A stretch of 64,000 bases of DNA from Escherichia coli (GTDB lineage Bacteria; Pseudomonadota; Gammaproteobacteria; Enterobacterales; Enterobacteriaceae), in NCBI RefSeq assembly GCF_017348835.2, contig NZ_CP071375.1. One strand, written 5' to 3'. Of the stretch, positions 24,001 through 27,000 are shown in pieces. How positions within the stretch are numbered: the stretch's first letter is position 1; each line of letters begins with the position of its first letter. The position numbers are program-made.

Positions 24001-27000
24001 AACGCATTAGGTATCGTCGGAAAAACCTCAAACACACCCAAAGGTCTCTTGCTAAAGCCCTGAAAATCTCCCATGTGTCTGTATCACAATGGGAACGGGA
24101 TGATAGTGAACCTACAGGGAAGAACCTTTTTGCCCTCAGCAAAGTATTGCAATGCTCACCAACATGGATTCTATTTGGCGATGAAGACAAGCAACCAACA
24201 CCACCTGTTGAGAAGCCAGTTGCCTTATCCCCCAAAGAACTAGAGCTCCTTGAGCTGTTTAATGCACTGCCAGAATCAGAACAGGATACCCAGCTCGCCG
24301 AAATGCGAGCTCGAGTAAAAAACTTCAATAAACTCTTTGAAGAATTACTAAAAGCCCGTCAGCGGACAAATAAAAGATAACATCATCAATGAGTTATCTT
24401 TTACCACATCAATCATGTTAGCCATAACATACAAAATCACTTGACCTATATGTTAGCCATGGCTAATCTTATTTGCATCAACACACCGCACGGTGTTCTC
24501 AGCAAACAGTTCCGCTACCCCGGCGTTAAGGGGAAATGAGGTCAACATGGATACTATCGATCTTGGCAACAGCGAATCTCTGGTATGTGGCGTGTTCCCC
24601 AACCAGGACGGTACGTTCACCGCGATGACGTATACCAAAAGCAAAACGTTTAAAACCGAATCTGGAGCGCGTCGCTGGCTGGAAAGAAATTCAGGTGGGT
24701 GATATGGATTTCGACACAATCATGGAAAAGGCTTACGAAGAATACTTCGAAGGTCTTGCCGAAGGCGAAGAAGCTCTCAGCTTCAGCGAATTTAAACAGG
24801 CACTTTCCAGTTCGGCAAAATCTAACGGCTGATAAGCGAAACAGCACCGCGAGGAATCAGTATGCAGAAACGAGAACCCGTCATCATCGCGCCAGACTAT
24901 ACCGATGATGAACTTTATGAGTGGATGCGCCAGAAAATTAATGCAGCGCAGGATCTGAAATGGGCCAATGAAGCCAGGGCTAAGCAGGCTGAAAATCTGT
25001 CCGCTCTGGAGCAGGATATCACTAATCTGGAAAAAGCAGCGACATTAAGCATTGCCAGAATGATTACATACCCGCGTTAATAGCTAACCAACGAAGCTAA
25101 GGTTGGTAATTAAGGAGTTCTCCACGGATGAGGTGGAGTGCGTGCGCCGGACACGGGTGAGCATCCGGCACTGACAGTTTACTGAAAGGATATTTCCCTG
25201 AAAAGTCAGACCATAACGCGAAAGCGCACGGCGAGGTAGCTGGTTCATAGATAGCCTGTCGTTAAATTTTCGTCGACCGTGCGCTTCCGGTTGTGGCAAT
25301 CCGCGAAATGGCGCGGCGGTAAGTATGGCGGGGTTATTCCTTCCCCCGTTGAGGACACCGGGTTGTCAGGTTGACCATACGCTTAAGTGACAACCCCGCT
25401 GCAACGCCCTCTGTTATCAATTTTCTGGTGACGTTTGGCGGTATCAGTTTTACTCCGTGACTGCTCTGCCGCCCTTTTTAAAGTGAATTTTGTGATGTGG
25501 TGAATGCGGCTGAGCGCACGCGGAACAGTTAAAACCAAAAACAGTGTTATGGGTGGATTCTCTGTATCCGGCGTTAATTGTTAACTGGTTAACGTCACCT
25601 GGAGGCACCAGGCACTGCATCACAAAATTCATTGTTGAGGACGCGATAATGAAAACGTTATTACCAAACGTTAATACGTCTGAAGGTTGTTTTGAAATTG
25701 GTGTCACTATCAGTAACCCAGTATTTACTGAAGATGCCATTAACAAGAGAAAACAAGAACGGGAGCTATTAAATAAAATATGCATTGTTTCAATGCTGGC
25801 TCGTTTACGTCTGATGCCAAAAGGATGTGCACAATGAATTCAGCATTTGTGCTTGTTCTGACAGTTTTTCTTGTTTCCGGAGAGCCAGTTGATATTGCAG
25901 TCAGTGTTCACAGGACAATGCAGTAGTGTATGACTGCAGCAACCGAACAGAAAATTCCCGGTAACTGTTACCCGGTCGATAAAGTTATTCACCAGGATAA
26001 TATCGAAATCCCGGCAGGTCTTTAAAACAGTTCCGTAATAAATATCCGGTTTCATTCTTATATGCCAGCAATGGCAGGGATTTGTTCATCCTTAAATCTG
26101 TCATGAGGTTAAAACAAATGAGTAAAGTCTTTATTTGCGCCGCTATTCCTGACGAACTGGCAACAAGGGAAGAAGGCGCTGTGGCTGTAGCCACAGCCAT
26201 TGAAGCTGGCGACGAACGCCGTGCTCGAGCAAAATTTCACTGGCAATTCCTGGAACATTATCCGGCTGCTCAGGACTGCGCTTATAAATTTATTGTCTGC
26301 GAGGATAAACCTGGCATACCCCGCCCTGCCCTCGATTCATGGGATGCTGAATATATGCAGGAAAACCGCTGGGATGAGGATTCTGCTTCTTTTGTCCCGG
26401 TTGAGACTGAATCCGATCCGATGAACGTCACTTTTGACAAGCTGGCCCCTGAAGTACAGAACGCTGTCATGGTTAAGTTCGACACATGTGAAAACATCAC
26501 CGTTGATATGGTGATTAGCGCACAGGAATTGTTGCAGGAAGACATGGCAACATTCGACGGACATATCGTTGAAGCGTTGATGAAAATGCCAGAAGTTAAC
26601 GCCATGTATCCGGAGCTTAAGCTGCATGCCATCGGGTGGGTTAAGCATAAATGTAAGCCTGGTGCCAAATGGCCCGAAATTCAGGCAGAGATGCGCATCT
26701 GGAAAAAACGTCGCGAAGGTGAACGCAAGGAAACCGGAAAATACACGTCTGTTGTTGATCTCGCCCGCGCCAGAGTCAATCAACAGCACACTGAAAATTC
26801 AACAGGAAAAATCAGCCTGGTCATTGCTGCCATTCATCGCGAATACAAGCAGACATGGAAAACACTGGATGACGAACTGGCCTACGCTCTCTGGCCTGGT
26901 GATGTGGATGCCGGAAACATTGACGGCAGCATCCATCGCTGGGCAAAAAATGAAGTTATCGACAACTACCGCGAAGACTGGAAGCGTATCTCGGCATCAA

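What the first reader, a model, noticed from the sequence alone, without database searches (positions are those of the whole stretch)
25834..26025. ydfD-like lysis gene carries an in-frame amber codon
The ORF is translationally coupled to dicB (ATGA) and runs 63 codons to TAA, the length I recall for K-12 YdfD, but codon 31 is TAG (25924..25926). The product would be a 30-aa fragment unless suppressed. This may be a way of disarming a toxic lysis gene in a resident prophage.
Basis: partly seen in the sequence, partly recalled or inferred. Interest (0 to 1): 0.4.

Follow-up and report, generated by a model that had tools for sequence, protein, structure and literature searches.

The report
Nonsense-mutated ydfD prophage lysis gene
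The small prophage lysis gene ydfD here really is cut in half by a single-base stop mutation, but this is an ordinary pseudogene that public annotation already flags, sitting in a decayed prophage and shared by about two dozen other E. coli genomes.

Summary
ydfD (25834..26025, +) overlaps the dicB stop by ATGA, and its codon 31 is TAG (25924..25926). K-12 has GAG there, and that single G-to-T change is the only difference across 491 nt. Glu31 is invariant in the DUF1482/YdfD family. The 32 downstream codons are the better-conserved half and hold both conserved cysteines. Neither refutation criterion is met, so this is a genuine premature stop.

The window is 100% identical over the 20 kb compared to E. 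coli PE164, where RefSeq already marks ydfD as a pseudogene with an "internal stop". The same allele occurs in at least 24 of 5,426 complete E. coli genomes, including EPEC E2348/69. It sits at four or more chromosomal sites with several immunity types, always on the same local haplotype. In strain FORC 064 a 300-370 bp gene-conversion tract copied it between two co-resident prophages. A single origin spread by recombination fits best.

Published truncation data predict that the 30-aa product does not lyse cells. Whether the loss was selected ("disarming") or is neutral decay cannot be decided. More than 99% of carriers keep the intact gene, including a near-isogenic prophage in strain ECO2947. 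Every carrier prophage examined in full shows other lesions. Interest is low.

The parts
25834..26025 (+). ydfD (DUF1482 family lysis gene) carrying an internal amber codon; a pseudogene
   Evidence: RefSeq annotates the identical PE164 sequence as 'lysis protein YdfD, internal stop'. The repaired protein hits Pfam PF07358 at E=3.9e-26.
25924..25926 (+). TAG at codon 31 (Glu31 to amber; G-to-T at 25924)
   Evidence: It is the only difference from K-12 in 491 nt. Glu31 is invariant in the 27 of 29 aligned family proteins that cover this column.
25834..25926 (+). ORF for the predicted 30-aa N-terminal fragment (hydrophobic N-domain)
   Evidence: On its own it matches Pfam DUF1482 positions 1-27 (33.1 bits). 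It corresponds roughly to YdfD deltaC35 in PMC8835842, which binds IspG in vitro but is inactive in cells.
25930..26025 (+). Possible restart ORF from Met33 (31 aa, C-terminal domain lacking Glu31 and Cys32); hypothetical
   Evidence: One search lists the ORF. The only Shine-Dalgarno-like element is weak: AGGA, 13 nt from the ATG, -4.0 kcal/mol, against -5.9 to -6.3 at real starts nearby. The peptide matches DUF1482 positions 30-57.
25649..25837 (+). dicB, the intact cell-division inhibitor gene; its stop overlaps the ydfD start
   Evidence: Pfam DicB at E=1.9e-40.
25423..25474 (+). DicF sRNA of the same operon
   Evidence: Rfam RF00039, 76.7 bits.
26118..28589 (+). Full-length exonuclease gene downstream (the counterpart of the K-12 ydfE remnant)
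23973..24380 (+). dicA, encoding the repressor of the dicBF-ydfD operon
   Evidence: Its role is described in PMC10448788.
23659..23889 (-). dicC (Cro-like regulator)
28851..29901 (+). Prophage integrase annotated as frameshifted, next to the attachment site
   Evidence: A lesion of the same 1051-nt length is annotated in all serU-site relatives examined.
29929..30018 (-). tRNA-Ser (anticodon CGA, serU), the prophage attachment site; the anticodon is wild type, not a suppressor

Best explanation
This is a loss-of-function nonsense allele (Glu31 to amber, GAG to TAG) of the prophage gene ydfD. The gene lies in the early-left dicA-ydfABC-dicF-dicB-ydfD-exo operon of a degraded Qin-like lambdoid prophage integrated at serU. 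Translation that begins at the ATG overlapping the dicB stop ends after Gln30. The released 30-aa hydrophobic N-terminal fragment lacks the conserved C-terminal domain, including both conserved cysteines. Published truncation data indicate that such a fragment cannot lyse cells. The allele most likely arose once on the common K-12-type ydfD haplotype. It then spread among resident lambdoid prophages by homologous recombination and gene conversion, and with its hosts. It is one of many lesions that accumulate in cryptic prophages. Shown here: the mutation, its position in a conserved family, its distribution, and one conversion tract. Inferred: loss of lysis activity, single origin, and absence of selection.
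For: The single G-to-T change is the only difference from K-12 in 491 nt. In 29 aligned DUF1482 proteins, E31, C32, A35, A36, Q39, K40, G43 and Y46 are invariant, and family members run 63-67 aa. Both halves match Pfam PF07358 separately. RefSeq annotates the identical sequence as a pseudogene with an internal stop in PE164, FORC 064, E2348/69 and others. The exact TAG 61-mer occurs in 24 genomes out of about 3,490 that carry this haplotype. Carriers sit at serU/mtfA, potC, rspB and at least one other site, with four or more immunity-region types. All share an identical local haplotype, while their flanks are mosaic. The FORC 064 serU copy has a MEI003-type haplotype interrupted by a TAG-haplotype tract, with the left breakpoint in 25852-25923 and the right at 26220-26221. 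ydfD has 16 single-nucleotide routes to a stop codon, yet all 24 genomes use the same one, which argues against recurrent selected hits. The ECO2947 prophage, which has GAG, differs at 2 positions in the 4.7 kb compared. Intact YdfD is required for lysis: deltaC1 to deltaC5 relieve toxicity, and residues 1-28 do not function in cells (PMC8835842). The window holds no tRNA with a CUA anticodon. Other lesions lie in the same prophage: frameshifts in the capsid, portal and integrase genes, an internal stop in the TerB-family gene, and an IS3 insertion.
Against: Loss of lysis activity was not measured for this allele. A restart at Met33, three nucleotides after the stop, cannot be excluded. Single origin cannot be strictly proven, because the surrounding K-12-type haplotype is so common and invariant that independent G-to-T events on it would look identical. 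The rest of the PE164 genome was not searched for suppressor tRNAs. Some annotated frameshifts in the prophage could be assembly errors, so the degree of decay may be overstated.
Confidence: 0.85

Rival explanations
1. Adaptive disarming. The nonsense mutation was selected because leaky or stress-induced YdfD expression from a resident prophage costs the host fitness, and the allele spread because it is beneficial.
For: YdfD is strongly lytic when expressed, and ydfD mRNA rises under stress or when CRISPR-Cas is inactivated (PMC8835842 and PMC9782134). The allele is found at several prophage sites and in several host backgrounds. Other independent ydfD lesions exist: a 50-aa truncation with 83 member sequences, a 53-aa Shigella form, a frameshift, a DicB-YdfD fusion and N-terminal replacements.
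Against: More than 99% of genomes with this haplotype keep the intact ORF, including K-12's long-cryptic Qin and the near-isogenic ECO2947 prophage. The dicB-ydfD segment is present in 4,007 of 5,426 genomes. According to the literature, co-expressed DicB blocks YdfD lysis and DicA represses the operon. One shared lesion, rather than many different ones among the 16 possible nonsense routes, looks like spread of a single event. No rate comparison with neighbouring genes was made.
Confidence: 0.2
2. Split gene with translational restart. Ribosomes that terminate at TAG reinitiate at the ATG three nucleotides downstream (Met33, 25930), giving separate N-terminal (1-30) and C-terminal (33-63) peptides that keep attenuated YdfD activity.
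For: The ATG lies 3 nt after the stop and in frame with the conserved C-domain. The C-terminal peptide still matches DUF1482. The literature reports that a C-terminal domain alone retains reduced killing (Masuda 2016, as cited in PMC8835842).
Against: The Shine-Dalgarno-like element is weak and badly spaced (AGGA, 13 nt, -4.0 kcal/mol). The restart peptide would lack the invariant Glu31 and Cys32. Lu et al. found that removing as few as 1-5 N-terminal residues relieves toxicity and that the two domains must cooperate. Met33 is not conserved; it is Val in common alleles, so the restart codon is there by chance.
Confidence: 0.06
3. Conditional expression by amber suppression or read-through. Full-length YdfD is still made when a suppressor tRNA is present or through basal UAG read-through.
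For: The downstream frame is fully open and identical to wild type. From my own knowledge, natural coliform isolates with amber suppressors have been reported. The prophage sits at serU, the gene that can mutate to the supD suppressor.
Against: None of the 8 tRNAs in the window has a CUA anticodon, and serU has its wild-type CGA anticodon. From my own knowledge, UAG followed by U is an efficient termination context in E. coli. Any inserted residue would replace an invariant Glu. The open downstream frame is expected for a young mutation in 99 nt. The rest of the genome was not searched.
Confidence: 0.03
4. Neofunctionalised N-terminal fragment. The 30-aa peptide binds IspG without inhibiting it and acts as a decoy that protects the cell from full-length YdfD made by other co-resident or incoming lambdoid phages.
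For: YdfD residues 1-28 bind the IspG N-domain in vitro but do not kill cells (PMC8835842). Many carrier genomes hold 2-5 ydfD copies. The allele was copied between co-resident prophages in FORC 064.
Against: There is no direct evidence. The fragment's binding was much weaker than that of full-length YdfD. Five carrier genomes have only this one copy. The allele is rare.
Confidence: 0.03
5. Sequencing or assembly error.
For: PE164 has several annotated frameshifts in this prophage, which could reflect assembly quality.
Against: The change is a substitution, not a homopolymer indel. It is present in 24 independent complete genomes, including two separate assemblies of E2348/69.
Confidence: 0.01

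Closest known systems
ydfD of the E. coli K-12 Qin prophage (lysis protein YdfD, 63 aa, WP_001083297.1; reported IspG inhibitor)
   Same: It matches 191 of 192 nt, has the same ATGA overlap with dicB and the same operon order (dicA, ydfABC, dicF, dicB, ydfD, exo).
   Different: Codon 31 is TAG instead of GAG. The prophage is at serU rather than rspB, and it keeps a full-length exonuclease gene where K-12 has a truncated, IS2-interrupted remnant.
RefSeq-annotated ydfD pseudogenes with 'internal stop' in E2348/69, FORC 064, O157:H16 98-3133 and others
   Same: They have the identical ydfD sequence with the same TAG.
   Different: They differ in integration site (potC, rspB, tandem), in immunity region and in the exonuclease haplotype of the flanks.
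Other disrupted DUF1482/YdfD alleles in public protein sets (P0091 50 aa, P0050 53 aa, P0108 frameshift, P0085 DicB-YdfD fusion)
   Same: They are independent lesions of the same small prophage gene.
   Different: The mechanisms and positions differ: C-terminal truncations, frameshifts, deletions and fusions. None of them stops at codon 31.
Gene decay in cryptic lambdoid prophages of E. coli, such as Qin, Rac and DLP-12 (general knowledge)
   Same: Point lesions, IS insertions and deletions accumulate, and modules are exchanged between co-resident prophages by recombination.
   Different: Nothing differs in kind. This is one specific allele of that process.

Membership tests
YdfD / DUF1482 (Pfam PF07358) | Sequence match to the family profile above the curated cut-off | tested here: met
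   The repaired 63-aa protein scores 91.1 bits against a cut-off of 25. The N-fragment scores 33.1 bits and the C-fragment 40.2 bits.
YdfD / DUF1482 (Pfam PF07358) | Position immediately downstream of dicB, overlapping it, in the dicBF operon of a lambdoid prophage | tested here: met
   (DicF, dicB, ydfD, exo in the K-12 order).
YdfD / DUF1482 (Pfam PF07358) | Uninterrupted ORF of about 63-67 codons | tested here: not met
   TAG at codon 31. Family members run 63-67 aa and E31 is invariant. The sequence is therefore a pseudogene of the family, not a functional member.
YdfD / DUF1482 (Pfam PF07358) | Cell-lysis activity on expression / IspG inhibition | not testable with these tools
   Only an inference from published truncation mutants is available (PMC8835842).
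Nonsense pseudogene | Premature stop relative to intact orthologues, including near-isogenic ones | tested here: met
   K-12, phage PhiR42_1 and ECO2947 all have GAG. ECO2947 differs at 2 positions in the 4.7 kb compared.
Nonsense pseudogene | Relaxed constraint or further decay downstream of the stop | tested here: inconclusive
   No extra substitutions were seen downstream in the 12 TAG copies compared, but 99 nt gives no statistical power.
Programmed stop-codon recoding or suppression | A cognate suppressor tRNA or recoding machinery, and conservation of the stop among functional homologues | tested here: not met
   The window holds no CUA-anticodon tRNA. Homologues carry Glu, not a stop, at this column. 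The rest of the genome was not scanned.
Translational restart / split gene | A start codon with a usable ribosome-binding context just after the stop, conserved among carriers | tested here: inconclusive
   An ATG lies 3 nt downstream, but the Shine-Dalgarno-like element is weak and distant. Met33 is Val in common alleles. Expression cannot be tested here.

The most novel reading that the evidence does not exclude
The amber allele may not be a simple null. It lies near the published domain boundary (residues 28/29), two codons past it, and has an in-frame ATG three nucleotides downstream. It could therefore yield a non-toxic IspG-binding N-terminal peptide, with or without a restart C-peptide, that blunts lysis by full-length YdfD from co-resident or superinfecting lambdoid phages. 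That could explain why the allele has been copied into prophages at four or more chromosomal sites.
Probability: 0.04. Interest if true: 0.45.

Novelty: already known. Interest (0 to 1): 0.1.

Why it matters
It matters little. The result confirms that PE164 and about two dozen other E. coli genomes, including the EPEC reference strain E2348/69, carry a naturally truncated ydfD. Anyone using these strains to study dicBF/ydfD toxicity, or YdfD as an IspG-targeting lysis protein, should know this. The allele offers a ready-made natural counterpart to the laboratory truncation mutants. Its presence at several prophage sites, with a mapped 300-370 bp conversion tract, is a tidy small example of recombination moving a point lesion between co-resident prophages. 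It does not reveal a new mechanism.

Tried and rejected
- **Sequencing error:** rejected. The change is a substitution shared by 24 complete genomes, including two assemblies of E2348/69.
- **YdfD proteins that end naturally at this position:** rejected. Family members are 63-67 aa and Glu31 is invariant.
- **Downstream codons not conserved:** rejected. The C-terminal half is the better-conserved half.
- **Suppressor tRNA in the window:** none among the 8 tRNAs.
- **A second ydfD/DUF1482 copy in the window:** none.
- **TAG allele in sequenced phage genomes:** not found. Eight phage records cover the segment, and the closest, PhiR42_1, has GAG.
- **Literature on a ydfD amber allele or pseudogene:** nothing relevant. 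The primary paper, Masuda et al. 2016, is not held, so its findings are quoted only through papers that cite it.
- **Promoter and terminator scan around the operon:** nothing above shuffle expectation that bears on the finding.
- **The second ydfD-like place in the PE164 genome:** could not be located with the tools, because only one row per record is listed.

Full report
**Observation**

- The ATG at 25834 overlaps the TGA of dicB (25835..25837) as ATGA.
- The frame runs 63 codons to a TAA at 26023..26025.
- Codon 31 is TAG (25924..25926).
- The translation is MNSAFVLVLTVFLVSGEPVDIAVSVHRTMQ*CMTAATEQKIPGNCYPVDKVIHQDNIEIPAGL.

Against K-12 MG1655, the 491-nt dicB-ydfD segment differs at one base only: GAG (Glu31) in K-12 becomes TAG here, a G-to-T transversion.

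**Identity of the gene and the refutation criteria**

- With Glu restored, the protein matches Pfam DUF1482 (PF07358) at 91 bits. The two halves each pass the 25-bit cut-off on their own.
- A search of the large protein collection found 226 relatives, typically 63-67 aa long.
- In an alignment of 29 of them, Glu31 is invariant. So are Cys32, Ala35, Ala36, Gln39, Lys40, Gly43 and Tyr46.
- The C-terminal half is better conserved than the hydrophobic N-terminal half.

No family member ends naturally at this position, and the downstream 32 codons are conserved. The codon is a genuine premature stop in a conserved small gene.

**Context**

Over the 20 kb compared (window 12000-32000), the window is 100% identical to E. 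coli PE164, a pig isolate (NZ_CP114128.1).

ydfD lies in the operon dicA, ydfA-B-C, DicF (Rfam, 25423..25474), dicB, ydfD, full-length exonuclease, DUF4224 gene, integrase. This belongs to a Qin-like lambdoid prophage integrated at the serU tRNA-Ser gene, next to mtfA.

RefSeq already annotates this ydfD as a pseudogene with an "internal stop". The same prophage carries other annotated lesions:
- frameshifts in the capsid, portal and integrase genes;
- an internal stop in a TerB-family gene;
- an IS3 insertion in the lysis region.

**Distribution**

- The dicB-ydfD segment occurs in 4,007 of 5,426 complete E. coli genomes.
- The exact 61-mer centred on the TAG occurs in 24 genomes. About 3,470 others carry the same segment with 1-3 mismatches.
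- The wild-type genomes inspected within that larger group have GAG: K-12, ECO2947 and phage PhiR42_1.

| Site of the TAG copy | Strains |
|---|---|
| serU/mtfA, all with the same 1051-nt frameshifted integrase | PE164, FORC 064, O157:H16 98-3133, AMSHJX01, ESBL 15, MB06102 |
| serU/mtfA, placed through 20-kb matches | IAL7252, IAL7254, IAL7255, C3, C7, 602687, CD45, 19KM2326N |
| potC | E2348/69 |
| rspB, the canonical Qin site | Z1322HEC0010, Z1323CEC0015 |
| Another site | D1 |
| Second, tandem prophage | FORC 064 |

These prophages have at least four different immunity regions. All four carrier prophages examined in full carry additional lesions; the Z1323CEC0015 Qin-site prophage is otherwise nearly full-length. 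None of the 8 sequenced phage genomes that cover the segment has the TAG.

**Origin**

I aligned 4.7 kb around ydfD from 12 TAG copies and 4 GAG copies.
- Every TAG copy shares an identical core haplotype, the common K-12 type, while the flanks are mosaic.
- The ECO2947 serU prophage is near-isogenic with the window. It differs at 2 positions in 4.7 kb, one of which is the TAG site, and it has the intact gene.
- The serU copy in FORC 064 has a MEI003-type haplotype up to 25851 and again from 26222. Between those points it carries the TAG haplotype. This 300-370 bp gene-conversion tract was presumably donated by the second prophage 18.5 kb away.

ydfD has 16 different single-nucleotide routes to a stop codon, yet all carriers use the same one. 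A single origin followed by recombination and vertical spread is much more likely than recurrent hits, although it is not strictly provable.

**Consequence**

Lu et al. 2022 (PMC8835842) report the following.
- YdfD has an N-domain (residues 1-28) and a C-domain (residues 29-63).
- Removing even 1-5 residues from either end relieves lethality.
- The N-domain alone binds IspG in vitro but does not work in cells.
- Both conserved cysteines lie in the C-domain.

The predicted 30-aa product is therefore very probably non-lytic. This is an inference, not a measurement.

Two routes to a longer product were considered.
- **Suppression or read-through.** No tRNA in the window has a CUA anticodon, and serU has its wild-type CGA anticodon. 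From my own knowledge, the UAG-U context is an efficient terminator.
- **Restart at Met33.** The ATG at 25930, three nucleotides after the stop, could support a restart. Its Shine-Dalgarno-like element is weak and 13 nt away. The peptide would lack the invariant Glu31 and Cys32, and Met33 is Val in common alleles.

**Was it "disarmed"?**

The functional outcome, a toxic gene made harmless, is likely. The adaptive claim is not supported.
- More than 99% of carriers of this haplotype keep the intact gene, including long-cryptic K-12 Qin and the near-isogenic ECO2947 prophage.
- According to the literature, DicA represses the operon and co-expressed DicB blocks YdfD lysis.
- Deleting ydfD in K-12 gives little phenotype.
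- Other independent ydfD lesions exist: truncations at residues 47 and 53, a frameshift, a DicB-YdfD fusion and N-terminal replacements.

**Verdict**

The feature is an ordinary nonsense pseudogene that public genome records already annotate. The only mildly interesting points are its spread across prophage sites by recombination and its value as a natural truncation allele. I rate novelty as "already known" and interest as low.

Noticed in passing
window 28851..29901: The prophage integrase is annotated as frameshifted at 1051 nt. A lesion of the same length is annotated in every serU-site relative examined (FORC 064, O157:H16 98-3133, AMSHJX01, ESBL 15, MB06102, MEI003, ECO2947). This suggests an old shared lesion in a prophage fixed at serU.
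   Followed up: partly
window 29929..30018 (-): The attachment-site tRNA-Ser (anticodon CGA) is serU. From my own knowledge, an anticodon mutation in this gene gives the classical supD amber suppressor. Here the anticodon is wild type, so it does not suppress the ydfD amber codon 4 kb away.
   Followed up: yes
L004 (FORC 064 serU prophage), equivalent to window 25852..26221: A 300-370 bp gene-conversion tract carrying the TAG is embedded in an otherwise MEI003-type haplotype. The probable donor is a second degraded prophage 18.5 kb away in the same genome.
   Followed up: yes
window 14022..14450 (-): A TerB-family gene in the prophage is also annotated with an internal stop. The same annotation appears in the second FORC 064 prophage, so this may be another shared nonsense allele.
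   Followed up: no
window 10612..10728 (+), 44096..44212 (+), 57111..57227 (-): There are three copies of an IS3-family element, each with an ALIL programmed-frameshift pseudoknot scoring the same 120.3 bits. One of them interrupts the prophage lysis region between the holin gene and the SASA esterase gene.
   Followed up: no
window 31010..43701: An island sits next to tRNA-Asn (asnT). It holds an integrase (31235..32497), an IS66 element, a PemK/MazF-MazE toxin-antitoxin pair (37270..37860), an EFASI RNA (36526..36655), C4 antisense RNA with isrK and c4-a1b1 (38927..39132), an LA2681-family HEPN protein (39244..40848) and a 946-aa hypothetical protein (40861..43701). It may be defence or satellite cargo.
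   Followed up: no
window 14798..14873 (-): ARAGORN calls this prophage tRNA tRNA-Met (anticodon CAT), while RefSeq annotates it as tRNA-Ile, presumably the lysidine-modified type. It sits in an Ile-Arg-Arg tRNA cluster downstream of the Q antiterminator gene.
   Followed up: no
window 18019..18343 (-) and 13681..13853 (-): A hokD toxin gene with its sok antitoxin RNA, and an STnc100 sRNA, lie within the prophage (Rfam hits).
   Followed up: no
L018 (Z1323CEC0015, ydfJ..rspB): This is an almost full-length, roughly 48-kb version of Qin at the canonical site. It has complete-looking head and tail gene sets and intact int and xis genes, carries the same ydfD TAG allele, and has a few annotated frameshifts.
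   Followed up: partly
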